Positions 1,042 to 28,659 of a stretch of 57,447 bases of DNA are shown here, one piece after another (within the stretch, counting starts at the first letter, position 1; every line of letters starts with the position of its first letter). Both the position numbers and the translations under genes were made by a program. Origin of the DNA: an uncultured delta proteobacterium (GTDB lineage: Bacteria > Desulfobacterota > RBG-13-43-22); NCBI GenBank assembly GCA_963802945.1, contig CAWDKY010000039.1, positions 1 through 57,447 of the forward strand, in the 5' to 3' direction. The notes under the pieces are model-generated. The model saw only the letters and a program-made list of their open reading frames with translations, ran no database searches and was not told where the DNA came from.

Positions 1042-1049
1042 TAGACATT

Positions 1050-1965: not shown

Positions 1966-1968
1966 TTC

Positions 1969-3024: not shown

Positions 3025-3293
3025 GGAGCTTTAAAATGGACGTTGCAATAAAAAGCTGGCGAATATTTCAAATCTTGGTTTTTAAAAAATTGACTTCTGA
3101 ACCATTATTTCAAAACTTTCTAACTATGCGCATGCGGAAGTATAACAACGTTTTTCCAGAAATGGTAGTCCGACATTGATAGCTTTGCAAGTCGGCATTA
3201 GGTCGCTTACGTCTGCATTGTTATAGAATTGGTGCGTCTTGGCGGCAATACGAAAAGCCGTAATTTCTTGGATTCACGGGTAAGGGTTATTTT

Positions 3294-5001: not shown

Positions 5002-5003
5002 GA

Positions 5004-5375
5004 TGACGTCTACTCTGCTGATAGGACAAGCATGGCGCTTTGCAATCTCTAGGCTGCTTGTTCAGTTTATGTGCCCGTTGCAATCTATTTTTTTAATTTC
5101 GTGCTGCATGTTCCGTCCCTTGCTAATGGATTTGCGTTTGGAGTGGCAACGGTCTTTTCTTATATGATCAATACCTTCTGGAGCTTCTCTATCCTGCTGC
5201 GCAGAATAAATCTTCAACGTTTTGTTTTGATTACTTTAATTGGATGCTTTCTTGCTGTGGCAGTTTCTGAAACCGCTTAGTACTACGACTTGCACTATAT
5301 GATGGTATTAAATTAGTTGTTTGTACGGTTTCGCCAGTAACGTTTCTCCTTCATAGCTTTTGGACGGATCAATGA
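5004..5375 (+). pseudogene. gtrA: GtrA-family flippase, frameshifted with internal stops
   Basis: QAWRFAIS in one frame, ANGFAFGVATVFSYMINTFWSF in another, and a PVTFLLHSFWT tail near 5335-5370; stop at 5278. Confidence 0.75.
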
Positions 5376-5426
5376 AATTTATTTATGTTCATTTGTCATT
5401 GGAAACATTGACAGAGGTGTTACAGA

Positions 5427-7272: not shown

Positions 7273-7401
7273 GTTTTAAAAATAGCCCTTCGTCTTGAGT
7301 TATGGCAAAGAAATTTCGACCAAGAAATTGAATGAACTGGTATAACGTGTACAACTTCTTAGCATTAACTACGCCGCTTTTTTCTTGCTATTTTCTGCTT
7401 C

Positions 7402-7683
7402 GTGTCTTCCGCCCTGCTGGAAGATCAGAGAGCATTCTTATTTTCTTTTGCCTGTTCGCAGCCCATATGGATCATTAAGCGAGACAGATCGAGCCAGAAA
7501 ATCTTTTTGCGAAGTAACGGCGATGCACTAGTTATGTCTGTTCGGGTTATTGGTTTGCCACCAAGCGAGCTTGCCGAGATCAGCATTGAAACCGATGACA
7601 CGGCATCCTCCCTTGGGGACCGGGATACTCGAAGGTCAGCATGGATGGTATGTAACGTAAACATCAATCCGGTCTCTCCCTAA
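7402..7683 (+). other. Possible remnant of a C-terminal periplasmic domain of a glycosylation protein
   Basis: SSLGDRDTRRSAWMVCNVNI loosely resembles the DxRxLG-type tail; no convincing start. Confidence 0.25.
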
Positions 7684-7745
7684 TCATCTGCCTTGCATTC
7701 TTACAACCCCATAACAGTAAACTGATAAATCCGGTATAAGATACC

Positions 7746-9218
7746 ATGCTATTTACAACCCCGACGTTTCTTTTCTTATTCCTACCGATTTTTTTCCTGG
7801 CGTATTATCTGGCACCCAATCTAGGATGTTGGCGCAACCATATTGCTCTGCTTGCCAGTTTGATTTTTTTCTCTTGGGCGGAGCCTGTTTATGTATTTTT
7901 ATTAATAGTTTCAGTCTACATTGATTATCTAATATCAAATCTGATATCAACAAACTCGGCATCGTCGCTTTCGAAGAAGAAGCTCCTTCTCTGGATTGGT
8001 ATTTTTTTGAATGTTGCAGTCCTCATTGCATTTAAATATACATCATTTATCGTATCGGAGGTCCTCATACCACTTAAGTTGTATAGCAGTCAAATGGCGG
8101 ACGCGAACTTCCCTCTGTTGATGGGCATATCTTTTATCACATTTCATAGAATCAGCTACTTGGTTGACTGCTTCAAGGGAACTGCAGCTCCTTCGGAAAG
8201 TATTTATGACTATGCCTTGTATATCTTCTTGTTTCCTAAGCTCATTTCTGGTCCCACAATTCTGTACCACGATATCGACGATCAAATTCATCGGAGAATG
8301 TATGCAAACAGTGCATTCCTGGTCGGATCTTTCCGCTTTTGTATCGGTTTTTCGAAAAAGGTGCTGATAGCAGATCCGTTAGGGCTAGTCGCAAATCGGA
8401 TATTTGCACTGCCTTTGAATGAGTTATCAATTTGGTACGCATGGGCAGGTGCTTTTGCTTATACGCTACAAATTTACTTCGATTTTTCTGGTTACTCCGA
8501 TATAGCGATTGGTCTGGGTCGTATGATGGGATTTCGATTTCCGGAGAATTTTAATCGGCCATATACCTCATTGAGCATTACTGAGTTCTGGCGCCGCTGG
8601 CATATTACCCTATCCGGTTGGATGCGATTATATCTGTATATCCCCCTTGGCGGGAATAGGGTTTCAAAAACAAGAACTCTTGTTAATCTATGGATTGTTT
8701 TTCTCATTTCCGGCTTTTGGCATGGTGCAAATTGGACATTTGTTGTATGGGGTGCGTACCACGGGCTATTTTTGTGCATCGAAAAATATGCATCAGAAGT
8801 AGCGCCTGCAGCAAAAAAGTATCTTCCATCTTTTATCCGTTTCCCAGCGACCATGATAATTGTGCTATTTGGATGGGTAATTTTTAGATCCGCAACACTT
8901 TCTTATGCCATTAATTTTATGAAAGTGATGGTCGGTTTTTCGAAACCACAGTCATGTCTTCAGCCGTGGGGCTTGTTATTTGGAAATCGCGAGTTATTCT
9001 TATTAGTTATTGGTTCAATCATTGTTTTCTTTAAGGTTCCCGGCAAACATCTCAGGCTCCCCGCCTGGTTCTCAAGTGCATGGAGCGAGTCAATGACGAT
9101 TGGCGGAGGACGTGTTCAAATTTTTACGACTTTCCTCGCAACAATTGTACTGTTCTTGTACTCTGTCATGGCAATGCTTAGTTCAGAATATGTACCATTT
9201 CTTTATTTTAGGTTTTAG
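7746..9218 (+). CDS. MBOAT O-acyltransferase, AlgI/PatA/DltB-like
   Basis: GISFITF, QIYFDFSGYSDIAIG, ENFNRPY, EFWRRWHITLS, SGFWHGANWTF, terminal PFLYFRF. Confidence 0.93.
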   Translation: MLFTTPTFLFLFLPIFFLAYYLAPNLGCWRNHIALLASLIFFSWAEPVYVFLLIVSVYIDYLISNLISTNSASSLSKKKLLLWIGIFLNVAVLIAFKYTSFIVSEVLIPLKLYSSQMADANFPLLMGISFITFHRISYLVDCFKGTAAPSESIYDYALYIFLFPKLISGPTILYHDIDDQIHRRMYANSAFLVGSFRFCIGFSKKVLIADPLGLVANRIFALPLNELSIWYAWAGAFAYTLQIYFDFSGYSDIAIGLGRMMGFRFPENFNRPYTSLSITEFWRRWHITLSGWMRLYLYIPLGGNRVSKTRTLVNLWIVFLISGFWHGANWTFVVWGAYHGLFLCIEKYASEVAPAAKKYLPSFIRFPATMIIVLFGWVIFRSATLSYAINFMKVMVGFSKPQSCLQPWGLLFGNRELFLLVIGSIIVFFKVPGKHLRLPAWFSSAWSESMTIGGGRVQIFTTFLATIVLFLYSVMAMLSSEYVPFLYFRF

Positions 9219-9221
9219 TCC

Positions 9222-10439
9222 ATGGGGAAAAAACAGGATTTATTATATATAGTGCTTTCCGGGTTATTTATTTTATTACTTCTACTTCCTTCTCTACAGT
9301 ATTTTTTTCGGCTAATCCCGGAAGGAAATCTTTACGGATATGTTGAAAAAAAAACGACCAAGCCGGGCAGCATTGTGCACGGCTGGTTCGATAAGAGGCT
9401 GCAGCGATGGTGGGAAGAAACATTTGATAATAATATAGGGTTCAAGACTTTTTGTGTTAGAATCTTCAATGAGATAAATTTTCGGCTCTTTTCTGAGGCA
9501 CCGCAAATTCGATTGTATTCAACAAAAGCCCACGGGTTGTATAGTCGAATGTCGATTGAAAGTTTGAATTATGAGTTCACCAACCACGAAATGCTATCGA
9601 AGCAATATGTTGAATTTGCTCACAAGCTTATTGAGCTTCAAGGATTACTAGAAAAAAATGGCAAACATTTCGAGGTTGTTATTAGTAGTAGCAAAGCCTA
9701 TGTACACCCAGATGGATTGGGTAAGCGATTTCTTATAAATACCGATAGCAATATCTTTTCAAAAATTTCAAGCCTTGGGAATGAACTTAAAAAACTTAAA
9801 GTTAACGTTATTGACTCTGGACCGCTTCTTCGCCAACTTTATATGCATGAATTAATTGAGACTCATCCTTATTCGGGTGTCCATTGGAATTATTATGCAG
9901 GATGCATCGTGGCGCGTGATCTACTCAATGATGCAAAAAAATTATTGAAGAATACTCCTATCTTAAATTGTGGCAGTCCTGTTTATAAAGAATCGACAAT
10001 GGTTGATGTAGATGGTCTACTGCTTCTCAATGTCCTCAGTGATGTCAACATCCTTCGCCCGAGTCCCTATCCATCTCCGACTATTGAGTCTTTTGGTGGT
10101 TACAAGCCGAAAATTTTGATAATCGGAGATAGTTTTATGGGTCAGATGGTATTTTCGCTTATGGAATCAGTCGCCTATTCACGGCTCGTCACCAGTAATT
10201 ACTTTAGCACACGTGAAGTTCACTATCAACCGATTGACTCGCCATGTGAAAAATCTGAGTCGCTCTCAAAACAACATATTCAGGCCTCAGTAATTAATGA
10301 TGCTTTAAATAGTGATCTGATTGTTTTACAGATGGTTGATTATAACGTATCGAGATTTGGTTATGGTTTCGTCGACTCTCTCTTAAAGTATTTGAAGCTC
10401 TCCCCCAGGTTACAGCGGAATTTAAAAAATCAATCATAA
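9222..10439 (+). CDS. AlgJ/AlgX-like SGNH O-acetyltransferase partner
   Basis: N-terminal TM anchor, GVHWNYYAG, IIGDSF; immediately follows the MBOAT gene. Confidence 0.75.
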   Translation: MGKKQDLLYIVLSGLFILLLLLPSLQYFFRLIPEGNLYGYVEKKTTKPGSIVHGWFDKRLQRWWEETFDNNIGFKTFCVRIFNEINFRLFSEAPQIRLYSTKAHGLYSRMSIESLNYEFTNHEMLSKQYVEFAHKLIELQGLLEKNGKHFEVVISSSKAYVHPDGLGKRFLINTDSNIFSKISSLGNELKKLKVNVIDSGPLLRQLYMHELIETHPYSGVHWNYYAGCIVARDLLNDAKKLLKNTPILNCGSPVYKESTMVDVDGLLLLNVLSDVNILRPSPYPSPTIESFGGYKPKILIIGDSFMGQMVFSLMESVAYSRLVTSNYFSTREVHYQPIDSPCEKSESLSKQHIQASVINDALNSDLIVLQMVDYNVSRFGYGFVDSLLKYLKLSPRLQRNLKNQS

Positions 10440-10480
10440 AATCATATGGCACTATGGGTATTTTTTAAAGGAATACTTAA

Positions 10481-11659
10481 ATGAGAATCGGGGTAAATTG
10501 TTTTTCGCTACTGGCCAACATAGGGGGAATGAACCAGTATTTTATAAATCTTTTTAATGAAGTCCTGGATCATGGTTCTGAGAACGAATATATTTTTTTC
10601 TACTCCGAACAAAATATCGACGAACTCAGGAAATTAAAAAATACAAGTTGGGAGAAAAATGGGGTCTTATTAAAAAGCCAAGAAGATATTTTAAACCATC
10701 TTAACCGAATGGATCTTTATTTCTGCCCTTTAGGGGCGCTGTGGCCGAGGCCTTTGCCTTTACCAACGGTTGTTACCATCCCGGACATTCAGGAAGTTTT
10801 TTATCCCCATTTTTTTACCGAACTGGAACTTTATTACAGAGCTTACCATTACCGCGGCTCGACTCAAATTGCCGACCGGGTAATCACTATATCCCGTTTC
10901 TCCAAGGAGACCATCGTCAAGCAACATCGAATTCCCACCAAAAAGGTTATCGTGGCCTACCCCTATATAGACCCAATTTTTTTTAGCGCTAAAGGACAAC
11001 GGGCTGAAAATAATAGAACGGTCCCATTTTCTGAATTCATCTTATACCCGGCCAATCAATGGCTCCATAAAAATCATGACGGACTTCTTAAGGCCATTCA
11101 ATTGCTTAAAAAAAGAAGGGTTATGATTAACGCTATATTGACCGGTCACGAAATGACACAGGGGTATCCTTTAAAAAATAAAATAAATGAATATGGGTTA
11201 TCGGAACAGGTTTTTATGGTAGGATATATTTCGAAAGAAGAACTGGCCGGCCTTTATGCCAGAGCCAGAATGATGATTTTCCCTTCTTTCTTTGAAGGAT
11301 TTGGAATCCCTCTTTTAGAAGCCATGGCCGCTGGTTGTCCGATAGCCGCTTCCCGGACCACATCTCTCCCGGAAATCGGAGGAGAGGCCGTGGAATACTT
11401 TGATCCTCATCAATCGGAAGATATAGCCCGGGCAATAGAGTATTTATGGAATAATCCGGAAAGACGGAGGGAATTGGTTCAAAAAGGATTTAACAGGATA
11501 GAACGGTTTTCCGTTTCAACTTTTATCCAAAATCATCTGAAAGCCTTTGAAGAGGCCGTCCAATCATTTTCTATTCGCCGTTATTATTGGAATCGATACT
11601 GGGCACATCCTTATCATCGTTTCTGTATTAAATGGAAATATCGTGAAATATTAAGGTGA
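10481..11659 (+). CDS. GT4 glycosyltransferase
   Basis: VVTIPDIQ, YPANQWLHKNH, FPSFFEGFGIPLLEAMAAGCP. Confidence 0.93.
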   Translation: MRIGVNCFSLLANIGGMNQYFINLFNEVLDHGSENEYIFFYSEQNIDELRKLKNTSWEKNGVLLKSQEDILNHLNRMDLYFCPLGALWPRPLPLPTVVTIPDIQEVFYPHFFTELELYYRAYHYRGSTQIADRVITISRFSKETIVKQHRIPTKKVIVAYPYIDPIFFSAKGQRAENNRTVPFSEFILYPANQWLHKNHDGLLKAIQLLKKRRVMINAILTGHEMTQGYPLKNKINEYGLSEQVFMVGYISKEELAGLYARARMMIFPSFFEGFGIPLLEAMAAGCPIAASRTTSLPEIGGEAVEYFDPHQSEDIARAIEYLWNNPERRRELVQKGFNRIERFSVSTFIQNHLKAFEEAVQSFSIRRYYWNRYWAHPYHRFCIKWKYREILR

Positions 11660-12139
11660 TAAAAATGAATAGTCACAAAGACCAACTCCTCCCGTCACCT
11701 ACGGGTCTCTTCGTTCTTAATGGCCGCCAGAGCTACCTGGTGAAAGTCAGGATTTGACTATACAAGCATCGTCAAGTGTGATGATGACTTCTTCCTGAAA
11801 TGTCGATTTTGAATTTTGACTCTTTATACTAGATTACAAACGGTAATCAATTTGCACAGTCCAGATAAAAAGCAATTTCTTATCAATGGTTCTCTCGGCG
11901 ACCCTTGCGCCTTTGGGGTGAACAGTAACTATCTTTCCAGATAACTGAATTTTTACCTTTCTTCGTCATTTGTGAAGTTAACATTTCTTTTCTTGTTGAA
12001 TCAGGTTTCCGGGCTTAATTGCCGGTTGAAATGATAGCTGAACAGATCGTCTTTTTTTGAATAAATAAGTATCCCGATTTTTTGCTATTATAATAAGCTT
12101 ATTTTATTGAATAAGCGAGATAAATAGTTAAGAGAAAAC

Positions 12140-12421
12140 TTGACCCCTTTATTAATGCCTGACCTCATTGATCTTCACCAGGAGAGTTTTTCCATGAAAA
12201 GGGAAGAGCTGGCTTCAATGAATATTGCCTCTCTACTCGACAAGAAACAACGCACCAGAGCGCAGAAAGCCATAGAAGACCTTAAGCAGACAGGCACTCA
12301 AAGACCGTTGACTGAATATAAATTAAGATTCAAAAACGGTAAAGAGATCCATATAGAAACTAAACTGGGTGTTAATAACCAAAAGATCAATCTTAGAACC
12401 TACCTAATGGCCCTCCGTTAG
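12140..12421 (+). pseudogene. Probable PAS-domain fragment
   Basis: REELASMNIASLL...EYKLRFKNGKEIHIET resembles a PAS core plus PAC; no complete architecture. Confidence 0.4.
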
Positions 12422-12833
12422 TACCTGAAATAAGCCAGTATTTTGCCTGTAAATTTTTAGTGTTGTAAATGGTTAATTTTTGTGATATAAAACTTAAGGA
12501 GTAAGCACAAGTTGCTGATTGTTCCTACATACTATACTTAGCTTTTTGTAACAGAAGTGGAAAGGTGCCCGGCAGACCACAAAAAATCCATCTTAAAACA
12601 ACTTACCGATGGGTCATTCATTTGCCGAACAAAAGGGGGGCATCAAAAAATTCCGAGACGACGCCTCCAAAGAAGATCAGGTCTTGCTGGAGCTTTTTGT
12701 CATTAGGCCAACCTTTGAATTTTTAGAAGGCTACTGGAGCTAACTATGAAACGGCGGCCACAAGAATGTTTAGAAAATGCGGCTGCTCTCTCTGAAGAAC
12801 TGGTATAACTTCTAGGGCCAGGTCAGGAAAAAA

Positions 12834-13748
12834 GTGACGAAATTACCTTTAGTCACCATTATTACTCCAACATATAATTCAGAAAAAACAATTGAAACAT
12901 CTATCTTAAGTGTTGCCAATCAAAGATACATCAACAAAGAACACCTTATAATCGATGGTCAATCCAGTGATAACACGTTGGATATTATAAAAAAATATGC
13001 TGCCAAATATCCTCATATCAAATGGAAGTCTGAAAAAGATGACGGTATTTATGAGGCAATGAATAAAGGAATTGATTGGAGTAGCGGCGAATGGGTTTAT
13101 TTTCTGGGTGATGATGATATTTTTTATGATAACGATGTGTTAGTAAACATCTTAACTCCTGAGGTTTCCAATTTGGATGTCATATATGGTAATGTTCAAT
13201 GGGGCGAAACAGACCAAATATATGATGGGCCTTTTTCACAACTAAAATTGATGGAAAAAAACATTTGTCAACAAGCCATTTTTTTCAAAAAAAATGTTTT
13301 TACTCAATTAGGAGAATTTCAAACAGAGTATGATTCGTGGGCTGACTGGGTATTCAACATGAAATGGTTTAATAGTGAAAATATCCACTGGAAATATGTT
13401 AAAAATGTTATCGCAAAGTTTAACACAACAGGGCACTCTTGCCAAAAAGCGGATAAGGCTTTTTTAAAAAACAGAACAAATTTAATCCAGACTCATTTCC
13501 CGATTCATTATTTTGAACTAATTCAAAAAATAACAACCCTTGCTGAAGGCGATGGACAGATCGTCGGTCTTAACCAGGCATTAGCCGAGTGTGAGGCTCG
13601 AGTCCATGGACTTAAAGCTGAACTAACCAGAATTACATTGTCGCGTTCCTGGAAAATGACCAAGCCTCTTCGTTTTGCCGGCCGCATCCTGCGCGGAGAC
13701 TGGGCTGCCGTTCGAGCATCTATACACTCCCGCAGAAATGCTAAATAA
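12834..13748 (+). CDS. GT2 glycosyltransferase (WcaE-like) with coiled-coil/SxSWxxTxPLR tail
   Basis: IIDGQSSDNT, SEKDDGIYEAMNKGI, FLGDDD; tail SRSWKMTKPLR. Confidence 0.9.
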   Translation: MTKLPLVTIITPTYNSEKTIETSILSVANQRYINKEHLIIDGQSSDNTLDIIKKYAAKYPHIKWKSEKDDGIYEAMNKGIDWSSGEWVYFLGDDDIFYDNDVLVNILTPEVSNLDVIYGNVQWGETDQIYDGPFSQLKLMEKNICQQAIFFKKNVFTQLGEFQTEYDSWADWVFNMKWFNSENIHWKYVKNVIAKFNTTGHSCQKADKAFLKNRTNLIQTHFPIHYFELIQKITTLAEGDGQIVGLNQALAECEARVHGLKAELTRITLSRSWKMTKPLRFAGRILRGDWAAVRASIHSRRNAK

Positions 13749-14117
13749 AATTCATTTATCACTGAATAAGAAACATGTGGGAATTTAGCAACTAAATTCA
13801 AATAGCTCATTTTTAAAAAGTTGATTTTTTAAACCATTGAGATATCCTAGCGGTGCAACTACAACTGCAAGAAATGTAGCTATTCCAAGACTAATGTCAT
13901 TCTCTCACCTCTATCTAAGGCTTTCTCGAAAATCTTCTTGCTGCGCCTCGGTCCTTTGGCCAGGCTGCTAACCTAGCCTGATTTTCTTTGTTTCTCGGAT
14001 AATATTGATGCGGCCAGGAGCGAAGATGACGGCTTACCCCGTTATTAAATTAATTTAAGGATCAGAGACCAACATGAATGTAATAGGACCTTTGGAAATA
14101 GCGGTAAAGAAATCCTT

Positions 14118-15058
14118 ATGACCAAACAGAATAACAGTTGGGCCGTTGGCGCGGTTATCGTGATCTACCTCCCTGAGCAGGAAGTGCTGGGCCGTCTGCT
14201 GCGGGCACTGGTGGGGCAAGTCGCTTATATGGCTGTGGTTGATAACGGAGCCCTGGAAAGCACACGCTCTTTCCTGCAAGGCCTGGCAGCGGAATGGCCC
14301 TCACTGGAAATTTTCCCCCAAGGGCAGAATGTGGGAGTCGCCGCTGCCCACAATATAGGAATTGCCCGGATGCGAACCAGGGGATGTACGCATGTACTTC
14401 TGCTGGATCAGGACAGCATCCCGGCTCCGGATATGGTGGAAAAACTGTTGCACGCCTGTCTGAAACTGGAATCGGAAGGCAAACGGGTGGCGGCGGTGGG
14501 ACCCGGCTACCAGGATCCTCGTACCAACCACACCTCATTTTTTGTGCGTTTCGGCTGGCTGGGATTCAAGCACATCTATTGCGATCAACTGGATAAGGCT
14601 CCTATTCCCGTCGATTTTCTGATCTCCTCCGGCTCCCTGATACCCATAGCTACCTTAGACCAAGTGGGTGGAATGGATGAGCAGTTGTTCACCGATCATG
14701 TGGATACGGAATGGTTCCTTAGGGCGGCCTCGCGGGGTTATCGTGCCTATGGCCTTGGCGAGGCGAGAATGGAGCACAGCCTGGGTAAAGGCGCCGCCAT
14801 CCGCCTTTGGCTGGGCCGGTGGCGTTATATCGCCCTTCATAGCCCCTTGCGGCATTACTATATGTTTCGCAATAGTATTCTCCTTTACCGAAGGAACTAT
14901 GCTCCTTGGAAATGGATTTTTCCGATTTGATCCGACTTACTTTAATATTCTTTTTCTTTTTGGTGGTGTCTCGGGATCGCCTTGAGCAGGGTCGTATGAT
15001 GTTAAAGGGTTTATGGGATGGGGTTAGAGAAAAAACAAATCCGTCCCGATCAGTATAA
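14118..15058 (+). CDS. Rhamnosyltransferase-like GT2 (RfbF type), frameshifted near 14920
   Basis: NVGVAAAHNIG, LLDQDS, LISSGSLI, DHVDTEW, RHYYMFRN; the expected tail (MLKGLWDG) continues in another frame to about 15058. Confidence 0.85.
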
Positions 15059-15109
15059 CCGGCTGAGTTCGGCCTATAGAGAGCTACGATCAATGAGCGA
15101 GGCACCGCT

Positions 15110-15845
15110 ATCGGTAGTCAAAGGATTTAAAGATATTGTCGAATACTCATCCTCGGCCATCCATGCTGATCCAGCCAGCCGACCAGTAAACTCCAGGCTG
15201 GTAAACTGACTGCCCTGATCGGTATTGAAGTTCCCGGTTTGGAGACTCTAGGGCCTGGTTCAGAGACTCCAGGCAAAAGATCGTATCCAGGGTCGTCGAT
15301 ATTTCCCAAGCCAAAACATCGCGACTGTGCCAGTCCATGATGGCCACGAGTTAGACAAATCCGTGAAGCATACGGAGGTAGGTAATATCCGCACACCAAA
15401 CCTGATCGGGATAATCATAATCAAATTGTTCAATGATAAGGGTACTTCTTGTGGGCCTGGTTGGATCGGCTGAGCCGTGGCTTCGGATAAATGTCTTCCA
15501 GACCCCTTTGGCGTATTAATCGCATCCGCTTATGATTCACCCTCTGTCCCAGTAACCTTAACCAGGCGGTCATCAAGTCTACTCCATAAAATGGGGTCCG
15601 GGTAAACTATTCATCAATCAGGGTCATGAGCCACAGATGGTAGCTGTCATCCGTCTTCGACTCATAATAACACGAGGATCGAGATAGCTCCAACAGATCG
15701 CACTGTTTATCAATGGGAATTTGAGTATTTCCTGGATCGATCAATTTTCGTTTCTCTTCTACTGGAGCATTTGAGACTTTTTTTGAGCCAAACCCTCTCC
15801 ACTTTGAACTGACCGATATGCCGGTAAAGCTCAGAGACCAAATAG
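15110..15845 (-). mobile_element. IS3-family transposase remnant (end of orfA plus decayed orfB)
   Basis: LYRHIGQFKVERVWLKKK end of orfA with A7G slippery site near 15777-15784; QVWCADITY, AIMDWHSRDVLAW, SMDGRG in orfB; many lesions. Confidence 0.88.
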
Positions 15846-15998: not shown

Positions 15999-17786
15999 TT
16001 ATTTACCAAGCAGCAACAACAGCCAGGGCATAGCCTTGCCAGAGGTTTTAGAGCCTGTAAGCGTCTGATCGGCCAACAGATTGGCTCCATTGAAAGAACC
16101 CCATCCGGTAGCATTGTCATAACCCTTTTTGGCCGAATAATACAGGTTGTTGCTTCCGTCGGCGATGTCATGAAAATCCGTTTGATAATTTGCGCCTTTC
16201 CCAATCTGGTAAATCAAAGGATTGGCAAATCCCAACGTTGCCTTCCCATTAGCAGCGCGTAGCTGATTGACGCGCGCGGTGAAAGCCGCCCAGAGGGGAG
16301 CAGCACAGCTCGTGCCGCCATAAAGCCACCAGGCGCCTTCATAATAAACATAATAGGGACTATCTGCGACGGAAGCGTTGAGCGAAACATCCGGCACGTT
16401 CCGCATGGTAGCTGAGGCCGCGGTTCCAGTTCCTTGTTGCCAAGAGGGAATTGACCATACCCAGCTGACACCACCGCCACTGGCCCCGTAAGAGTCATTC
16501 CAGGTTGTTTCATGATTGTATGACCCGTCTGAGTTGACAAAAATCGTTGTCCCTCCCGCTCCAACCATATAAGGCTGAGAGGCAGGATCATCGACGCTGA
16601 GAGTAATACTATTGTCATAGGCGCCCGAGTCGCCCGAGGCCGCATAGATGGATTGCCCTTGTGCCGCCATTTGCTGGAAGATGGTATTCTCGCTGTTGAG
16701 AACCGTCGAGGAATTATCCCCTTCATCAAGCCCCCAGCTCGTGCTCATCTGTTTGGCCAGGTTATCTGTGGCCATTCTGTTATAAATGTCCACCGTCCCC
16801 GCATCCGTGTTCGGGCCTTCATAGACCATGATCTTGCTCGCACCCTGAGCCAGCGCCATCTGAAGTTCAATGTCAAGTGTCACTTCGTCCTCACCACAGT
16901 GGCCGCAAAGACAATAAGCGTAGGGGGGAGGACCACAGGTGGGACCGCCGTCAACCAGGACGTTTTGCAGCGTTATCGTTGGCAAACCAAAATAACTCGC
17001 ATAAGCGCTCACATCAGAGGAAGTGTACGAGGCGAGTTCGAATAAGCCAAGCGTTTGGCCGAACCCCTTGGCCGATACGCCGGTGAGGTTGTAAGCTTTT
17101 AGGATGTCGCTGGGTCTCAAATAGATACCGGTGCCTGTTCCTTTCGGCTGAGGCGATCTTGGTGAAAATCCCTCGGCAGAAACACGGCGGCTATGGGTAT
17201 GCCGGACGGCTGCATTGTCCAGACCAATCAGGCCGACAATAAGGGAAGCAATGGAACCGGGAACTTGAGGGTCATCGTCAGGGGCATAAAATATTCGGTT
17301 ATCCGGCCCTTGATAATTATTAAGATGCAACCCAAAGACAGATTCAATCACGGCTGCTGTGCCCGATACGTCCAGAAGGATACGGTTTGGATGAGTCCCG
17401 GTTATCTTAAGTCCCTGGCTTGTCGCATAGGCAGCGACGGTATCATAATCGCTCTGTGTAGGTCCAAATCTGTCGGTAAACTCCTGGGAGGTTAGATAGT
17501 GGCCATAAAGCGGATCAGTAGGATTGTAGATACGTTTCAGCAGTCCGTCCAACTCTGGCTGGTTGCGCAGCGGCAAAGAAAAAGCCAGGGAAATTTCGGT
17601 TTTGGAATCCAGCCTCTCTATCCACTTGGCCTTGGCTATAGCCTTTGCCGGGACATGACCGGGTAGCCTTACCATGGAAGGAACGGGACCCGATAAACAT
17701 GGCGTTGCCACCAGACCCAGGAGGATGATAAGAGCAAGTAAAAACACGCCTATTGGGTTGGAAAAATGAAGGGATGCCATCTTCAT
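15999..17786 (-). CDS. Secreted S53 (sedolisin/kumamolisin) protease with pro-domain
   Basis: Signal peptide; activation domain (YLTSQEFTDRFGP); EVTLDIE, ASGDSG, GGTSCAAP, Ca-binding DI..GSN...GYD..TGWGS; C-terminal KAMPWLLLLLGK. Confidence 0.95.
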   Translation of the reverse strand: MKMASLHFSNPIGVFLLALIILLGLVATPCLSGPVPSMVRLPGHVPAKAIAKAKWIERLDSKTEISLAFSLPLRNQPELDGLLKRIYNPTDPLYGHYLTSQEFTDRFGPTQSDYDTVAAYATSQGLKITGTHPNRILLDVSGTAAVIESVFGLHLNNYQGPDNRIFYAPDDDPQVPGSIASLIVGLIGLDNAAVRHTHSRRVSAEGFSPRSPQPKGTGTGIYLRPSDILKAYNLTGVSAKGFGQTLGLFELASYTSSDVSAYASYFGLPTITLQNVLVDGGPTCGPPPYAYCLCGHCGEDEVTLDIELQMALAQGASKIMVYEGPNTDAGTVDIYNRMATDNLAKQMSTSWGLDEGDNSSTVLNSENTIFQQMAAQGQSIYAASGDSGAYDNSITLSVDDPASQPYMVGAGGTTIFVNSDGSYNHETTWNDSYGASGGGVSWVWSIPSWQQGTGTAASATMRNVPDVSLNASVADSPYYVYYEGAWWLYGGTSCAAPLWAAFTARVNQLRAANGKATLGFANPLIYQIGKGANYQTDFHDIADGSNNLYYSAKKGYDNATGWGSFNGANLLADQTLTGSKTSGKAMPWLLLLLGK

Positions 17787-17889
17787 ATTTGATCTCCTTA
17801 AGCACTGGGTCTTGGACCCATGTAGTTGGACAGCCTAAACATGGGAATAAGGCCATGGTCTATCCCCACTTTTTGGGTGGTCTGGGCCA

Positions 17890-18085
17890 TGGTTTCTCAC
17901 TCCCGACCTGTTGATCTGTGACGAATTCACCTTAACCACGCTCACACCTAATACAGGTCGAGGACATCTATGAAATCATTACCAACACCTTATATAAGAT
18001 TGAGGTACTTCCCGCCTGAGCCGCATACTCCCACTCCGCTTCCGCGGGTAACCGGTTCTTACTGGTTCTTTCCTTCTGATGAGGA
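17890..18085 (-). pseudogene. Remnant of an FGE-sulfatase (SUMF1/EgtB/PvdO, CLec-fold) domain
   Basis: The minus strand reads QKERTSKNRLPAEAEWEYAAQAGST (core 18004-18054), then a frameshifted AW.KVNS...QVGSEKP; not in the ORF track. Confidence 0.8.
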
Positions 18086-18243
18086 CTTCAGGAAGGAAGT
18101 CGCCATTAAACTTGACAATGCCTGTAGCGTCAAATCCTGACTTTCCCACCTTAAGTGTCATCTAAATCTCCTGCTGCTGGTATTAGCTCTTAAGGATTTC
18201 TCAACCGCCGATCTTGATTAATTAATTGATTATAAAAAATAAA

Positions 18244-18561
18244 TCAATGGTAGGATATGGTGAGACTGACGGATACCGCTAAAATCAAGACATACTTTCC
18301 TAAGGACATTGCCGTCAGGGCAGTCGCCAAAAATTGATTCGCTTGGCCACTTGGGGCAACCATATATTGACCCGTAAAACTCCCATTAGTTGCTGTTAAA
18401 CAGATAAAGGCATTGCCCGCCCATGGACCGGCTGAAACTACGGTGGCATAATAAAGATTCTCAGAAGCCTGAGTTTCGGATTTTAAGGCAAAAAAAGTGA
18501 TCACCATCAACCCTACTAACATAAGGATAATAAATCTCTTTTTTGTGATTTTCATGGTCAA
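18244..18561 (-). CDS. Small secreted hypothetical protein
   Basis: SD aaggag, signal peptide ending TQA, about 70-residue mature part with NQFLATALTAMSLGKYV helix. Confidence 0.75.
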   Translation of the reverse strand: MTMKITKKRFIILMLVGLMVITFFALKSETQASENLYYATVVSAGPWAGNAFICLTATNGSFTGQYMVAPSGQANQFLATALTAMSLGKYVLILAVSVSLTISYH

Positions 18562-18766
18562 TCTCCTTTGATTGAGGTAGTTTCGTATTCAGCCCTAGCG
18601 GGTCTTATTATTTGGGGAGCAAAATAATACCGGGACAGTAATTTTTTTATATAATAATATAATCGGAAACGAATTGTATTTCAACGGGGAGGTAAACTTG
18701 ATTGATCCTTAGCTACCCACGGGCTTAAGCCCGAAGCCCTCACTGTTGATTCTGATAGTCATCGAG

Positions 18767-18815
18767 AGGAAAGGAAGAGGTCCGATCAGCAACGGATCGC
18801 TTCCTTTCCCTTTTT
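18767..18815. terminator. Hairpin downstream of the Tyr-rich gene (terminator or mRNA-stabilising stem)
   Basis: aggaaaggaag...cttcctttccc inverted repeat; the T-run is on the + strand only. Confidence 0.55.
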
Positions 18816-18834
18816 AGATCCCTAAACAAACTTA

Positions 18835-19755
18835 TTAATAACCTTCGTAGCAATAATAAGCGTCATCAGCGTCATTATAATACCAGGCATAATACCCATA
18901 AAGTTGAGCATAATAAGAATAGGTAGTGTCAACCCAGGTATAGAGTTCATAGGAAAGGCCATAGCCGCCCCAATATGTAAACCCCGCGGCGTGTGTTATA
19001 TAATAATAGCTATAATATTCATAGCTGCCACCATAATAGTAGGCATAATAAGAATATATATAGCCATAATAGGAATATAAATAACCATAATAGCTTAGCA
19101 AAAATGTGGGATAGGCATAAGGGTCACTGACCGTTAGGTAAGTATAGTATTGGTAGATATACCAATAATAAGCATAAAGGTAACTATAATACTGGTAATA
19201 ATAGGCATAGTAACAGTAGGTGGAATACTTTGGGCTCTGAATCCCGGCCTTACTCGAGGACGGCAACAGCGAGTCCTGAAAGAGTTTATTCTGGGAAGAG
19301 GTCAGGATTTTGGCCAGCCCTGTAGTCATGGCCTGGTTCCAGTTGGCCATTTGGGTCAAATTGGCATCATCTTTTTGAAAATTATGGCTACGTCTATTGC
19401 TTTTTTCGGCACTTAGATCACTTACATCGCCCAAGGTAATCTTAGGGGCCAGAGACTGGTTGGCGTTCAACAACCCTTTGATGCTGGTTTTTTGTTGGTC
19501 CGTTAGAGAATTAGCCAATTGTTTGGCCAACTCACTCTTGGTAGTGTCGTTTAGATTCATGGCCAGGCTGGCAGCCCCCGCTGGGACTGGCGGATTGTTA
19601 AAATCAAGATCCGCCGGGAAATTTTTAATCGTTAAGGCTCCCTCTTGACGAGTGGAATTCATATCTCCGGCATAGACGACGGCCACGGATATGACGAAAA
19701 AGATTGCGAGGAGTAAAACCCCACCAAGCATTCCTTTTTTCTTCAAATTTTTCAT
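18835..19755 (-). CDS. Secreted pre-pro-protein with an extremely tyrosine-rich C-terminal domain
   Basis: SD aaggag, Sec signal peptide (VYA|G), polar domain with two LTxxQ motifs, then 130 aa with about 55 Tyr by manual count. Confidence 0.85.
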   Translation of the reverse strand: MKNLKKKGMLGGVLLLAIFFVISVAVVYAGDMNSTRQEGALTIKNFPADLDFNNPPVPAGAASLAMNLNDTTKSELAKQLANSLTDQQKTSIKGLLNANQSLAPKITLGDVSDLSAEKSNRRSHNFQKDDANLTQMANWNQAMTTGLAKILTSSQNKLFQDSLLPSSSKAGIQSPKYSTYCYYAYYYQYYSYLYAYYWYIYQYYTYLTVSDPYAYPTFLLSYYGYLYSYYGYIYSYYAYYYGGSYEYYSYYYITHAAGFTYWGGYGLSYELYTWVDTTYSYYAQLYGYYAWYYNDADDAYYCYEGY

Positions 19756-19850
19756 CGTGTTTTCTCCTTTTCTAATTTGGTTTAGTTACAAATTTATAAA
19801 CTAAGCCACAACGTCTTAAAACATTTAATGTAGACTTCCATCACCTCCTC

Positions 19851-19878
19851 TTAGTATTGACATTTTAGTATTGACATT
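19851..19878. repeat. Perfect 14-bp tandem duplication ttagtattgacatt x2
   Basis: Read directly at 19851-19864 and 19865-19878. Confidence 0.9.
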
Positions 19879-20024
19879 AGATTTTAATAACCCCTATTAT
19901 AAATCCCCCTGCTCCTGGATCACTTCCCCTCCAAGGGCTGAGTTTCCAATTTCCCCGGTTAAAATATCAACATATCCGTTAGGATTTGTCAAGTAAAAAT
20001 AGACAGAAAGTGAAGTAAGAAAAT

Positions 20025-20270
20025 TCATTCATAAATCTCCTTGGATATGGCCGAGATTTGTGCCTCAGTTAATTCGGCAAAAATAGGAAGGGAAAGTATT
20101 TCTTTTGAAGCCTCCTCGGCCTGAGGGAAATCATCCTTTTTATAACCCAGGTCCTCATAAGCCTTCTGTAAAGGCCCGGTAATGGGATAGTGGATACCCG
20201 ATTGAATTCCTTTAGCCTGAAGCGGCTTTTGTAACTGATCACGTTTTAATGAGCGAATAGCATGAACTTT
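20025..20270 (-). pseudogene. C-terminal fragment of a DegT/DnrJ/EryC1/StrS sugar aminotransferase
   Basis: Minus strand reads RDQLQKPLQAKGIQSGIHYP...YEDLGYKKDDFPQAEEASKEILSLPIFAELT...stop; no start codon or N-terminal domain. Confidence 0.85.
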
Positions 20271-20284
20271 GAATCATTCGTTCG

Positions 20285-27209: not shown

Positions 27210-27806
27210 TTATTCTTCCCCCAACTGGTAGCGGGTAAAGCGCCGTATGGTGATACTCTCCCCGATTTGAGCGATCTTTTCATTCAGTAAATCGGCAATG
27301 GAGATATCCGGGTTCTTGACATAAGGCTGTTCCATCAAACAGCATTCCTTCAAATATTTTTCCACTTTACCTTCTACGATCTTCTCCATGACCTTTTCCG
27401 GTTTTCCAGATTCTTTGGCCTGAGCCCAATAGATCTCTTTCTCTTTTTCCAGAAGTTCAGAGGGCATCTCTTCCCTGCGAACACAAACCGGATTGGCCGC
27501 AGCGATATGCATGGCCAGGTTGTGGACCAGCTCTCCAAATTGTTCGGTTCGGCCGACGAAATCGGTTTCGCAGTTGACCTCCACCATGACGCCTATTTTC
27601 CCTCCGGCATGAATATAGGAACCGATCTGCCCTTGGGAAGTGGTCCGTCCGGCCCTTTTCTGGGCGGTGGCCAGGCCTTTTTTACGCAAATAGGCAACGG
27701 CCTTTTCCATATCCCCATCGGCCGCTTTTAAGGCCTCTTTGCAATCCATCATTCCGGCCTGGGTCTTATCCCGGAGGGCCTTGACTAACTCCGATGTAAT
27801 ATTCAA
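27210..27806 (-). CDS. tsf: Elongation factor Ts, short form of about 198 aa (TTG start)
   Basis: SD ggaggt 8 nt before TTG at 27806; VKALRDKTQAGMMDCKEAL, EVNCETDFV. Confidence 0.95.
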   Translation of the reverse strand: MNITSELVKALRDKTQAGMMDCKEALKAADGDMEKAVAYLRKKGLATAQKRAGRTTSQGQIGSYIHAGGKIGVMVEVNCETDFVGRTEQFGELVHNLAMHIAAANPVCVRREEMPSELLEKEKEIYWAQAKESGKPEKVMEKIVEGKVEKYLKECCLMEQPYVKNPDISIADLLNEKIAQIGESITIRRFTRYQLGEE

Positions 27807-28659
27807 CTTTCCATACCTCCTTCGGTTGGCATTTCTTCTAACTTTCGAACGATAATCACTTCCGGACCTCCCGGACTTGCGGGACTTCTGCCCTCTTTCT
27901 CTTGCCAATCGGCCTTTCCGACTATAGTTTCCTCGATTCGGCCTTCCTTGTCCAAATCCGCCTGACCGTCTCTTCTCTTTTGGCCACACCTTCTATGCAG
28001 GCATCAGCTATCTTAGAGGTAATCAAGCGAATGGCCCGAATGGCATCATCATTGCCGGGGATGATATAATCAACCTCATCCGGGTCGCAGTTGGTATCCA
28101 CAACCGATACCAGGGGGATTCCCAATTTCCTGGCCTCCAGGATGGCTATCGCTTCCTTTCGGGGGTCAATGACAAAGACGGCCTTGGGTAGTGTAGTCAT
28201 CTCCTTTATTCCACCCAGATTACGCAGTAGCTTGACGTACTCCCGATCCATGTTGATGATCTCTTTCTTAGGAAATCTTTGGATAGTCCCGTCGGCCTTG
28301 ATCCCTTCCAAATATTTCAAACGTTCGATTCCCAGCCGAATGGTCACAAAATTGGTCATGGTCCCGCCCAGCCAGCGATGATTGACATAAAACATCCCGC
28401 AGCGCTCAGCCTCTTCTTTTATTGCCTCCTGGGCCTGTTTCTTGGTGCCGACAAAGAGAACCGATCCTCCCTGGGCTACGGCATCCACCACAAAATCATA
28501 GGCAGTTTTAAAGAGACTGACAGTTTTTTGCAGGTCAATAATATAAATCCCGTTTCTGGCCCCATAAATATAGGGCTTCATTTTGGGATTCCAACGTTTG
28601 GTTTGGTGGCCGAAATGAACTCCGGCCTCCAATAACTGCTTCATTGAAACATAAGACAT
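27803..28659 (-). CDS. rpsB: 30S ribosomal protein S2 (probable indel near 27965 displaces the acidic tail)
   Basis: [22 protein letters not shown]; acidic tail QADLDKEG...GPEVIIV...MES in the neighbouring frame ends overlapping the tsf start. Confidence 0.95.

What the first reader, a model, noticed from the sequence alone, without database searches (positions are those of the whole stretch)
15999..19995. Candidate new extracellular system: Tyr-rich pre-pro-protein, small secreted protein and sedolisin protease
Seen: three co-oriented genes, all with Sec-type signal peptides, lie between an IS3 remnant and a DegT remnant at the edge of the core tsaB-rpsB cluster. The Tyr-rich protein has a linker ending QSPK just before its Tyr domain. 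The protease has a similar SPRSPQPK at its presumed pro/mature junction. Known: S53 proteases self-process in that linker. Inference: the protease may release the Tyr domain, which then assembles or cross-links as a matrix, coat, adhesive or redox material, with the small protein as an accessory. I know of no described system like this. Co-location by chance is possible, as the genes are 270-460 bp apart with a pseudogene between two of them.
Basis: partly seen in the sequence, partly recalled or inferred. Interest (0 to 1): 0.85.

Follow-up and report, generated by a model that had tools for sequence, protein, structure and literature searches.

The report
Tyrosine-rich secreted protein beside protease
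One of three neighbouring genes encodes an odd secreted protein, a chaperone-like part joined to a helical bundle made almost half of tyrosine, that belongs to a rare undescribed family, but nothing found here ties it firmly to the protease and the small protein next to it.

Summary
The sequence facts hold. There are three intact minus-strand genes: a Tyr-rich protein (18835-19755), a small protein (18244-18555) and an S53 sedolisin (15999-17786). They lie among IS3, FGE and DegT fragments beside tsaB.

The three-gene system is not supported:
- Neither of the 2 related genome loci I could fetch has a sedolisin or small-protein relative.
- The small protein has one weak homologue in 5.8 billion proteins.
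- The SPK site is not conserved.
- The gaps of 279 and 457 bp hold a hairpin, promoter-like sites and a pseudogene fragment.

The sedolisin is an ordinary, catalytically intact member of a very large clade.

The interesting part is the Tyr-rich protein. It has a signal peptide, then a Spy/CpxP-like LTXXQ domain, then a 126-residue domain that is 42% Tyr and bounded by two near-invariant cysteines. The model predicts this domain with confidence as a helical bundle. It matches nothing in Pfam, NCBIfam or the PDB folds.

The two domains are found together, in that order, in 37 of the 41 family proteins; the other four are fragments or weak matches. Six of the 41, apparently Chloroflexi-type long forms, also carry papain-like or caspase peptidase domains. 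That gives the processing idea a hint of independent support.

My best reading is a self-chaperoned, sticky anchoring or assembly module. This function is inferred.

The parts
18835..19755 (-). Gene for the Tyr-rich secreted protein (306 aa, P0001); stop codon at 18835-18837
   Evidence: ORF. 18 clusters in 5.8 G proteins and 33 representatives in 1.84 G. No Pfam or NCBIfam family.
19666..19755 (-). Signal peptide, residues 1-30 (MKNLKKKG..VVYA|GD)
   Evidence: Judged by eye. The AF2 model has a helix at 7-27. N-termini are alike in the relatives.
19258..19554 (-). Spy/CpxP-like LTXXQ domain, residues 68-166 (LTDQQ at 84-88, LTSSQ at 151-155)
   Evidence: The profile of A2 hits Spy 3oeo at E 2.5e-5 and CpxP 3itf at 4.1e-4, and both LTXXQ motifs align. 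Q88, L151 and Q155 are invariant. Helices at 72-162.
19216..19257 (-). Inter-domain linker, residues 167-180, holding QSPK (173-176)
   Evidence: pLDDT is about 70-81. The linker is not conserved: P[KR] is present in 4 of 44 family linkers.
18838..19215 (-). Tyr-rich domain, residues 181-306. 54 of the 129 residues 178-306 are Tyr, there is no Lys or Arg, and it is bounded by C181 and C302
   Evidence: Composition. C181 is present in 42 of 44 aligned domains and C302 in 40 of 44. AF2 helices at 180-208, 214-241, 244-275, 278-293 and 296-304, with pLDDT mostly above 90. Leave-out profile score 109.9 bits against a shuffle maximum of -9.5.
18768..18809 (-). Hairpin 25 nt after the Tyr gene stop; a possible terminator or stabiliser without a clear U tract
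   Evidence: Inverted repeat I2. Fold energy -27.6 kcal/mol, z -2.28.
19963..19992 (-). Promoter-like site upstream of the Tyr gene (TTGACA, 18 nt, GATATT)
   Evidence: This is a consensus match only.
19851..19878 (.). Perfect tandem 14-nt repeat, 96-123 nt upstream of the Tyr gene start
   Evidence: Family D9. Function unknown.
18244..18555 (-). Gene for the small secreted protein (103 aa from the ATG at 18555; P0019)
   Evidence: One homologue, P0020, at 41% identity, E 2.4e-3. The AF2 model is of low confidence (pLDDT 62.8), with a strand-strand-strand-helix-strand order after the signal peptide.
18656..18684 (-). Promoter-like site upstream of the small gene
   Evidence: This is a consensus match only.
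17971..18087 (-). FGE-sulfatase gene fragment (pseudogene remnant) between the small gene and the sedolisin gene
   Evidence: Pfam PF03781, E 6.5e-5, 22 residues matched.
15999..17786 (-). Sedolisin (S53) gene, 595 aa. Prodomain at residues 55-191, linker SPRSPQPK at 208-215, catalytic domain at about 224-572
   Evidence: Pro-kuma_activ, E 2.5e-27. Pro-kumamolisin 1t1e, E 1.5e-57. E301, D305, D386 and S493 align with E78, D82, D164 and S278 of kumamolisin-As.
15077..15606 (-). IS3-type transposase remnants in several frames
   Evidence: HTH_21 at 2.2e-4, rve at 3.2e-3 and 0.18. Stops and frame changes are visible.
20028..20273 (-). DegT/DnrJ/EryC1 aminotransferase C-terminal fragment
   Evidence: PF01041, E 2.7e-12, profile positions 286-358 of 360.

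Best explanation
The three genes are independent neighbours in a decayed, mosaic stretch between a polysaccharide-synthesis island and the tsaB-rpsB core. They are not a dedicated system.

The sedolisin is an ordinary secreted S53 endopeptidase of a very large clade. The small protein is a near-orphan of unknown role.

The Tyr-rich protein is the unusual item. It belongs to a rare, undescribed family whose unit is a fixed pair of domains:
- a Spy/CpxP-type LTXXQ helical domain;
- about 15 residues later, a roughly 125-residue helical bundle that is about 42% Tyr, has no basic residues, and is probably stapled by a disulfide between its first and last helices (C181-C302).

Shown here: the domain pairing, the conservation, the predicted helices and the fused forms.

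Inferred mechanism: after Sec export, the Spy-like domain acts as a built-in chaperone or cap for the very sticky aromatic bundle. The bundle then serves as an anchoring or self-associating module at the cell surface, binding envelope glycan, the membrane interface or other copies of itself. In the long forms this module carries lectin-like and peptidase domains in tandem. Here it stands alone.

Proteolytic removal of the Spy-like part is possible, but it is not needed for this reading.
For: Family and fold
- The domain pair occurs in the order Spy-like then Tyr in 37 of 41 family proteins. The other four are fragments or weak matches. Eight proteins have two complete modules.
- The Spy/CpxP relation rests.
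- AF2 gives pLDDT 82.5 and pTM 0.79 for the whole protein, and above 90 for the Tyr domain.
- Conservation is position-specific: C181 in 42 of 44 domains and C302 in 40 of 44, and the leave-out profile scores 109.9 bits against a shuffle maximum of -9.5.
- Small residues form one helical stripe in three of the four long helices, while aromatics lie all round. Random placements reached the observed stripe in 27, 7 and 30 of 2000 trials. Much of the Tyr should therefore be exposed.
- No Pfam, NCBIfam, PHROGs or PADLOC family matches. No fold match at E <= 0.001 in the PDB or BFVD.
- Variable partner domains suit a carrier or anchor module: 3keto-disac_hyd lectin-like in 3, a MAM-like domain weakly in 1, C70/C39-like in 5 and caspase in 1.
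- Glycan genes flank the module gene here and in L001 (MTase, PMT_2, GT4, Wzt_C-like).

Independence of the neighbours
- Neither of the 2 fetched loci has a sedolisin or small-protein relative.
- The small protein has 1 weak homologue.
- Codon-usage scores differ: Tyr gene 0.078, close to the core genes at 0.07-0.15; sedolisin -0.016; small gene -0.042.
- Separate ribosome-binding sites, promoter-like sites, a hairpin and a pseudogene fragment lie between the genes.
Against: - The function is inferred from composition and architecture alone. No binding partner, localisation or oligomer state was tested.
- The self-association job could not be run.
- The fusion of 6 of 41 family proteins to peptidases is what the processing hypothesis would predict. 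It also fits the Pro-Lys site of this copy and the likely specificity of the neighbouring sedolisin.
- Both the sedolisin linker and the Tyr-protein linker carry lineage-specific Pro-Lys sites: P[KR] in 5 of 119 sedolisin relatives and in 4 of 44 module linkers. This is a coincidence that I cannot dismiss.
- Only 2 outside loci could be examined.
- The AF2 model rests on 21 sequences of biased composition.
- The glycan-gene association is seen in 2 of 3 loci.
Confidence: 0.45

Rival explanations
1. The sedolisin activates itself in its SPR/QPK linker. It then cuts the Tyr-rich protein after Pro175-Lys176 and frees the Tyr bundle from its Spy-like pro-part. The bundle then assembles or is cross-linked into a matrix or coat. 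The small protein is an accessory.
For: - Kumamolisin-As prefers Pro at P2 and a basic residue at P1 (PMC5935664, passages).
- D169, D179, N102, D104 and G130 of kumamolisin-As are kept in this enzyme (alignment).
- The only 2 P[KRH] sites in the 595-aa sedolisin lie in its own pro/mature linker. One of the 2 sites in the Tyr protein lies in the inter-domain linker.
- P[KRH] is about two-fold depleted in the 120 sedolisins: 0.18 observed against 0.35 expected per 100 aa.
- 6 of 41 family proteins are fused to peptidases.
Against: - No synteny in either of the 2 loci.
- The small protein is a near-orphan.
- The closest relatives P0002-P0004 have no P[KR] in the linker; overall it is present in 4 of 44 linkers.
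- None of the best 120 sedolisin relatives sits on a contig of the same length as any Tyr-family contig. This check is heuristic.
- The genes are 279 and 457 bp apart, with their own signals and a pseudogene fragment between two of them, and they differ in codon usage.
- Characterised kumamolisins are acid enzymes (PMC5935664, passage), and no acidic setting is evident here.
- None of the ORFs scanned matches an oxidase, tyrosinase or peroxidase family.
Confidence: 0.13
2. A periplasmic stress protein of the Spy/CpxP/ZraP kind. The LTXXQ domain is the working part, as a chaperone or regulator. The Tyr bundle is an appendage that senses or soaks up oxidants, metals or polyphenols. The protein stays in the periplasm.
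For: - Profile match to Spy and CpxP over both LTXXQ motifs.
- Sub-threshold Pfam LTXXQ hits in 7 relatives and a Metal_resist hit in 1.
- A conserved His255 (30 of 44) and Asp211 (32 of 43) could bind a metal.
Against: - The Tyr domain is the better-conserved and larger part, and it is never missing from complete members.
- Tandem modules fused to lectin-like and peptidase domains do not look like small stress chaperones.
- The two genome loci are from Chloroflexi MAGs. From general knowledge, many Chloroflexi lack a classical periplasm.
- No two-component or stress regulon genes lie next to the gene.
Confidence: 0.15
3. A protoxin. The Tyr bundle is a membrane-interface-active effector, kept inert by the Spy-like part and released by a peptidase. 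That peptidase is fused in the long forms and acts in trans here.
For: - The Tyr helices have very favourable interfacial partitioning sums, -17.6 and -14.9 kcal/mol for helices 1 and 2. The scale values were recalled.
- The domain has no basic residues.
- Caspase and papain-like domains act as releasing peptidases or toxins in secreted polymorphic toxins (PMC3482391, passages).
Against: - No immunity-like gene, no toxin family hit and no PADLOC hit.
- The partner domains include lectin-like modules placed between two Tyr modules, which is not the polymorphic-toxin layout.
- The module is internal and N-terminal, not a variable C-terminal tip.
Confidence: 0.08
4. An artefact. The Tyr-rich frame is a chance open frame in low-complexity DNA, or the antisense of a real gene.
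For: The opposite strand also has open frames, Ile-rich ones. The DNA is internally repetitive (family D1).
Against: A signal peptide, a ribosome-binding site, 40 homologous clusters with position-specific conservation, and a leave-out profile score of 109.9 bits that 0 of 500 shuffles came near.
Confidence: 0.02

Closest known systems
Spy / CpxP / ZraP periplasmic LTXXQ proteins (Pfam PF07813)
   Same: Two LTXXQ motifs at the ends of a helical hairpin; exported; the profile matches Spy (E 2.5e-5) and CpxP (E 4.1e-4) across both motifs.
   Different: Here the domain is never free. It is always followed by the Tyr-rich bundle, and sometimes the pair is in tandem. It stays below Pfam's gathering score. 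Chaperone activity and the cradle dimer are untested.
Kumamolisin / kumamolisin-As (sedolisins, MEROPS S53)
   Same: For the protease gene: a Pro-kuma_activ prodomain, a Ser-Glu-Asp triad with an oxyanion Asp, and retained acidic S1 residues.
   Different: Most of the closest relatives are about 750 aa and carry C-terminal PF16656/PF00041 domains, which this copy lacks (the domain names are recalled as FN3-like). Its pro/mature linker (SPRSPQPKGTGTGIYLRP) departs from the clade consensus SP[YLF]QIGTGPGGGLTP.
Tyr-rich, cross-linked structural proteins such as Bacillus spore-coat proteins (PMC7944565, listing and abstract only)
   Same: Very high Tyr content in an extracytoplasmic protein.
   Different: No sequence relation was found with any Pfam family. 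Here the Tyr domain is a conserved, predicted helical fold rather than a low-complexity tail. No oxidase or peroxidase family matched any scanned ORF.
Secreted multi-domain proteins with releasing peptidases (polymorphic toxin systems, PMC3482391, passages)
   Same: The long family members end in a papain-like (C70/C39-like) domain or contain a caspase domain.
   Different: No recognised toxin tip or immunity gene. Lectin-like domains sit between two modules. The window's protein has no peptidase domain at all.
Intramolecular chaperone pro-domains (subtilisin and sedolisin prodomains; general knowledge)
   Same: A covalently attached helper domain precedes a domain that is hard to fold or keep soluble.
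   Different: In this family no cleavage site is conserved. The helper is of the Spy/CpxP type, which is known as a free chaperone.

Membership tests
Spy/CpxP LTXXQ family (PF07813) | Two LTXXQ motifs about 60-70 residues apart | tested here: met
   LTDQQ at 84-88 and LTSSQ at 151-155. Q88, L151 and Q155 are invariant in 21 sequences. Both align with the two motifs of Spy.
Spy/CpxP LTXXQ family (PF07813) | Score above Pfam's gathering cut-off (24.3 bits) | tested here: not met
   No hit for the window's protein at E <= 0.01. Seven relatives reach 17-20 bits.
Spy/CpxP LTXXQ family (PF07813) | Sequence-profile match to solved Spy/CpxP chains | tested here: met
   Spy 3oeo at E 2.5e-5 and CpxP 3itf at E 4.1e-4, over profile positions 78-157.
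Spy/CpxP LTXXQ family (PF07813) | Helical-hairpin cradle fold | tested here: inconclusive
   Helices are predicted at 72-162. The top Foldseek PDB hit is Spy 6bie, but at E 2.8.
Spy/CpxP LTXXQ family (PF07813) | Free-standing small periplasmic protein with chaperone or regulator activity | tested here: not met
   The domain is always fused to the Tyr domain. Activity cannot be tested here.
Sedolisin (S53) | Pro-kumamolisin activation domain | tested here: met
   PF09286, E 2.5e-27, residues 55-191.
Sedolisin (S53) | Ser-Glu-Asp triad and oxyanion Asp | tested here: met
   E301, D305, D386 and S493 align with E78, D82, D164 and S278 of kumamolisin-As.
Sedolisin (S53) | Catalytic domain similar to solved sedolisins | tested here: met
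   1t1e at E 1.5e-57, kumamolisin-As at 7.8e-46, sedolisin at about 1e-27 and TPP1 at 6.6e-24.
Sedolisin (S53) | Acidic pH optimum and autocatalytic activation | not testable with these tools
   Needs enzyme assays.
Dedicated gene system (conserved cluster or operon) | The same neighbours in other genomes | tested here: not met
   Neither of the 2 loci has a sedolisin or a small-protein relative. The small protein has 1 weak homologue.
Dedicated gene system (conserved cluster or operon) | Co-transcription | tested here: inconclusive
   Same strand, but gaps of 279 and 457 bp, promoter-like sites before two genes, a hairpin after the Tyr gene and a pseudogene fragment. There are no RNA data.
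Dedicated gene system (conserved cluster or operon) | Conserved cleavage motif in the substrate family | tested here: not met
   P[KR] occurs in the 28 residues before the conserved Cys in 4 of 44 modules. The commonest motif there is P-[QE]-[ST]-Q-x-D-C.
Dityrosine-cross-linked Tyr-rich structural proteins | A partner oxidase, peroxidase or tyrosinase, or homology to known coat proteins | tested here: not met
   No such Pfam family among the ORFs scanned, and no Pfam family for the protein itself. Cross-links themselves cannot be tested here.
Polymorphic toxin | Variable C-terminal toxin tip with an adjacent immunity gene | tested here: not met
   The window's protein ends with the Tyr domain. 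There is no toxin or PADLOC hit. The long forms end in peptidase or lectin-like domains.
OB-fold B-subunit-like small secreted proteins (for the small protein) | Fold or family match | tested here: inconclusive
   Language-model leads only, at 0.82-0.86: DUF5992 and toxin B-subunit clusters. The model is of low confidence at pLDDT 62.8. No Foldseek hit at E <= 0.001. No Pfam hit.

The most novel reading that the evidence does not exclude
The Spy-like plus Tyr-bundle unit is a new kind of secreted building block. A tethered chaperone domain keeps an aromatic-coated helical rod soluble until a peptidase removes it. That peptidase is the fused papain-like or caspase domain in the Chloroflexi-type long forms, and a recruited sedolisin with a matching Pro-Lys site here. 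The freed Tyr rods then stack or are cross-linked into an extracellular aromatic material: an adhesive, a coat or a redox-active layer.
Probability: 0.12. Interest if true: 0.85.

Novelty: new variant of a known kind. Interest (0 to 1): 0.5.

Why it matters
If the family behaves as proposed, it would be the first case of a Spy/CpxP-type chaperone domain permanently tethered to its own client. The client would be a natural folded domain built almost half of tyrosine, with no counterpart among solved folds.

That is of interest for three fields: protein folding (how a 42% Tyr bundle folds and stays soluble), cell-surface biology of Chloroflexi and some diderm anaerobes, and materials (adhesive or cross-linkable Tyr surfaces).

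The three-gene system itself would matter only if cleavage by the sedolisin were shown. As it stands, it is a neighbourhood and not a system.

Tried and rejected
Searches that found nothing
- Pfam, NCBIfam, PHROGs and PADLOC on the three proteins gave only the sedolisin prodomain. NCBIfam on 16 relatives gave nothing for the module.
- The ESM Atlas gave no usable hit for the Tyr protein and only weak leads for the small protein.
- Foldseek of the Tyr model against the PDB and BFVD, and of the small-protein model against the PDB, gave 0 hits at E <= 0.001.
- tblastn of the Tyr and small proteins against 72,556 plasmids found no match.
- Rfam and tRNA scans of the window found nothing.
- A frameshift as the cause of the odd sedolisin linker was rejected: the other frames do not encode the consensus.

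Steps that failed or were limited
- The genome scan with the 21-sequence alignment failed for lack of a conserved stretch. It was repeated with a 9-sequence alignment.
I therefore could not check whether the 1,119,855-base contig that also carries an identical Tyr protein has the sedolisin and the small gene.
- Complex prediction with three copies of the Tyr domain was never accepted: queue full or no answer. Self-association was not tested.

Literature
- Searches for 'tyrosine-rich' with 'LTXXQ' found 0 papers.
- 'tyrosine-rich' with Spy/CpxP/periplasmic gave 15 listed papers, none containing 'tyrosine-rich'.
- Chloroflexi, secreted and helical-bundle terms found nothing relevant among the 12 listed.
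- Three short motif strings gave 2 unrelated papers.
- Sedolisin with Geobacter gave none with 'Geobacter' among the 8 listed.
- I therefore found no description of this family in the held library. Subscription journals are not covered.

Full report
**1. What is there**

The finding covers three minus-strand ORFs: 18835..19755 (306 aa), 18244..18561 and 15999..17786 (595 aa). The second most likely starts at the ATG at 18555 and gives 103 aa, the form stored as P0019. Each has a GGAG-type ribosome-binding site 8 nt upstream (read).

- Upstream, at 1-15000 on the + strand, lie glycosyltransferase, MBOAT and methyltransferase genes.
- IS3-type transposase pieces follow in several frames: HTH_21 at 15433-15606 and rve at 15150-15350.
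- A 22-residue FGE-sulfatase fragment sits between the small gene and the sedolisin gene, at 17971-18087 (E 6.5e-5).
- A DegT C-terminal fragment lies at 20028-20273 (E 2.7e-12).
- Then come tsaB, rseP, dxr, cdsA, uppS, frr, pyrH, tsf and rpsB.

The window has no tRNA and no Rfam match. LptF/G indicates a diderm. The organism was not identified.

**2. The protease**

It is an intact sedolisin:
- Pro-kuma_activ prodomain, E 2.5e-27.
- Pro-kumamolisin 1t1e, E 1.5e-57.
- E301, D305, D386 and S493 align with the Glu78-Asp82-Ser278 triad and the oxyanion Asp164 of kumamolisin-As.

It belongs to a very large clade. 6759 of the 8000 scored candidates have E <= 1e-30. The best 120 are 54-73% identical. 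The few named ones are mostly Geomonas, Geobacter and Desulfuromonadaceae.

Most relatives are about 750 aa and have C-terminal PF16656/PF00041 domains (accessions; I recall these as FN3-like). The window's copy ends soon after the catalytic domain, and no remnant of those domains lies downstream. Shorter relatives of 532-585 aa also exist.

Its pro/mature linker is unusual. It reads SPRSPQPKGTGTGIYLRP, where the clade has SP[YLF]QIGTGPGGGLTP. P[KR] occurs in the aligned segment in 5 of 119 relatives. This is not a frameshift.

**3. The small protein**

It has a signal peptide and about 73 mature residues. In 5.8 billion proteins it has only itself and one weak relative, P0020 (41% identity, E 2.4e-3). 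It has no Pfam, NCBIfam, PHROGs or PADLOC family.

The model is of low confidence (pLDDT 62.8), with a strand-strand-strand-helix-strand order. The language-model leads (DUF5992 and toxin B-subunit clusters, 0.82-0.86) and the Foldseek rows (none at E <= 0.001) are only compatible with a small OB-like fold. I draw no function from this.

**4. The Tyr-rich protein**

No Pfam or NCBIfam family matches it. The family is rare: 18 clusters in 5.8 G proteins and 33 representatives in 1.84 G, giving 41 distinct proteins.

The alignments show, in order:
- a signal peptide;
- a variable stretch;
- two invariant LTXXQ motifs (LTDQQ at 84-88, LTSSQ at 151-155);
- a proline-containing linker;
- a Tyr-rich domain bounded by two cysteines.

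A profile of 21 members matches Spy (E 2.5e-5) and CpxP (E 4.1e-4) across both motifs. Pfam's LTXXQ model gives only sub-threshold hits in 7 relatives.

The Tyr domain has 54 Tyr in the 129 residues 178-306, and no Lys or Arg. Its homology is position-specific and not merely compositional:
- In 44 aligned domain instances, C181 is kept in 42 and C302 in 40. Many single Tyr positions are kept in more than 75%.
- Against a profile built from 40 instances without P0001-P0004, the window's domain scores 109.9 bits. 500 shuffles average -30.8 bits, with a maximum of -9.5.

AlphaFold2 with 21 sequences gives pLDDT 82.5 and pTM 0.79. It predicts helices at 180-208, 214-241, 244-275, 278-293 and 296-304, mostly above 90.

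Small residues (A/G/S) fall on one face of helices 1, 2 and 4. Random placements reached the observed value in 27, 7 and 30 of 2000 trials. Aromatics lie all round the helices. This suggests tight helix packing through a small-residue stripe, with much of the Tyr exposed.

The two cysteines sit at the start of the first helix and the end of the last. A disulfide staple between them is my inference.

No solved or viral fold matches at E <= 0.001.

**5. Family architecture**

HMMs of the two parts map them in the order Spy-like then Tyr in 37 of 41 proteins. The rest are fragments or weak matches. Eight proteins carry two complete modules.

All 41 were scanned with Pfam:
- 5 end in a papain-like Peptidase_C70/C39_2 domain: P0021, P0023, P0027, P0028 and P0033.
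- 1 has a caspase domain: P0026.
- 3 have a 3keto-disac_hyd lectin-like domain.
- 1 has a weak MAM-like domain.

In a FastTree of 42 modules (midpoint root; I did not examine support values), the window's module groups with P0002-P0004 and lies next to the tandem long forms. First and second modules of the long forms cluster separately.

**6. Neighbourhoods**

2 were confirmed, both in Chloroflexi MAGs:
- L001: a 795-aa two-module protein with a lectin-like domain.
- L002: a 1057-aa two-module protein with a lectin-like domain and a C70 peptidase.

Neither locus has a sedolisin or a small-protein relative (Pfam on 14 ORFs; tblastn). L001 has a methyltransferase, a PMT_2 protein, a GT4 and a Wzt_C-like gene nearby. 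This echoes the glycan genes in the window.

The closest relatives lie on short metagenome contigs, which I could not fetch. As a heuristic, none of the best 120 sedolisin relatives has a longest-contig length equal to that of any Tyr-family cluster.

**7. The cleavage idea**

Kumamolisin-As prefers Pro at P2 and His/Arg/Lys at P1 (PMC5935664, passages). The residues named there (N102, D104, G130, D169, D179) are kept in this enzyme, by the alignment.

In favour:
- The sedolisin has only two P[KRH] sites, and both are in its own linker.
- The Tyr protein has two, at APK 104-105 and SPK 175-176.

Against:
- Two sites in 306 aa is what the background rate of 0.60 per 100 aa predicts.
- P[KR] occurs in only 4 of 44 family linkers, and in none of P0002-P0004.
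- The commonest motif before the Cys, P-[QE]-[ST]-Q-x-D-C, looks more like a helix cap than a cleavage site. This is my inference.

It remains a curious coincidence that both this sedolisin and this Tyr protein have lineage-specific Pro-Lys sites in exposed linkers. I rate that as weak evidence.

**8. Transcription and composition**

- There are promoter-like sites before the Tyr gene (19992..19963) and the small gene (18684..18656). In all, 14 sites were found against 9.4 expected.
- A hairpin follows the Tyr gene (-27.6 kcal/mol, z -2.28).
- Codon-usage score against 12 core genes: Tyr gene 0.078, within the core range of 0.07-0.15; sedolisin -0.016; small gene -0.042.

These points favour separate units and perhaps separate origins. 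They do not exclude read-through.

**9. Verdict**

The system is not supported.

- The sedolisin is ordinary.
- The small protein is a near-orphan.
- The Tyr-rich protein is a member of a rare, undescribed family: a Spy/CpxP-type domain tethered to a novel Cys-bounded Tyr bundle.

My best mechanism, a built-in chaperone or cap plus a sticky anchoring or assembly bundle, is inferred. The peptidase fusions keep a processing model alive at about one chance in eight.

Self-association could not be tested, because complex prediction was never accepted. The sister contig could not be inspected.

I found no description of the family in the held literature. Subscription journals are not covered.

Noticed in passing
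window 19851-19878: Perfect tandem 14-nt repeat (2 copies), 96-123 nt upstream of the Tyr-rich gene. It overlaps a strong + strand promoter-like site at 19871..19900 (11 of 12 matches). It may be a regulator site or an antisense promoter.
   Followed up: no
window 15999-16070 (sedolisin C-terminus): The sedolisin ends in ..GSKTSGKAMPWLLLLLGK instead of the FN3-like C-terminal domains of most close relatives. No remnant of those domains lies downstream, next to the IS3 pieces. It may be a truncation or a natural short form.
   Followed up: partly
window 17142-17165 (sedolisin residues 208-215): The pro/mature linker departs from the clade consensus SP[YLF]QIGTGPGGGLTP and gains two Pro-basic sites. 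P[KRH] is about two-fold depleted across the 120 sedolisins (0.18 observed against 0.35 expected per 100 aa), as if they avoid self-cleavage.
   Followed up: partly
window 14118-14930: A GT2 ORF with GC 0.549 among neighbours at 0.36-0.41. It ends just before the IS3 remnants and is probably a separately acquired or truncated gene.
   Followed up: no
window 1-13748: A polysaccharide-synthesis island (GT2, GT4, MBOAT, methyltransferases and two large ORFs without a Pfam hit) with low GC3 (0.31-0.44) against 0.49-0.59 in the core genes. It is probably a horizontally acquired surface-glycan locus.
   Followed up: partly
window 35014-35505: A 163-aa ORF with a sub-threshold Invasin_D3 (Ig-like) match (28.4 bits against a cut-off of 33). 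It overlaps the end of the fumarase beta-subunit gene.
   Followed up: no
L002 5424-6311: Directly after the two-module plus C70 peptidase gene, with its start overlapping that gene's stop, lies a 295-aa ORF with an N-terminal hydrophobic segment and a C-terminal membrane anchor ending in KKRSAR. It has no Pfam hit and may be a partner of the long form.
   Followed up: partly
table (P0001): An identical Tyr-rich protein is recorded on a second contig of 1,119,855 bases. The sedolisin and small-protein clusters list only the 57,447-base contig. This could mean the neighbours differ in a sister assembly, or only that the bookkeeping is incomplete.
   Followed up: partly
window 27210-27989 / 27922-28659: The listed tsf ORF (GTG start) overlaps the end of rpsB by 68 nt. 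The true tsf start is probably further downstream.
   Followed up: no
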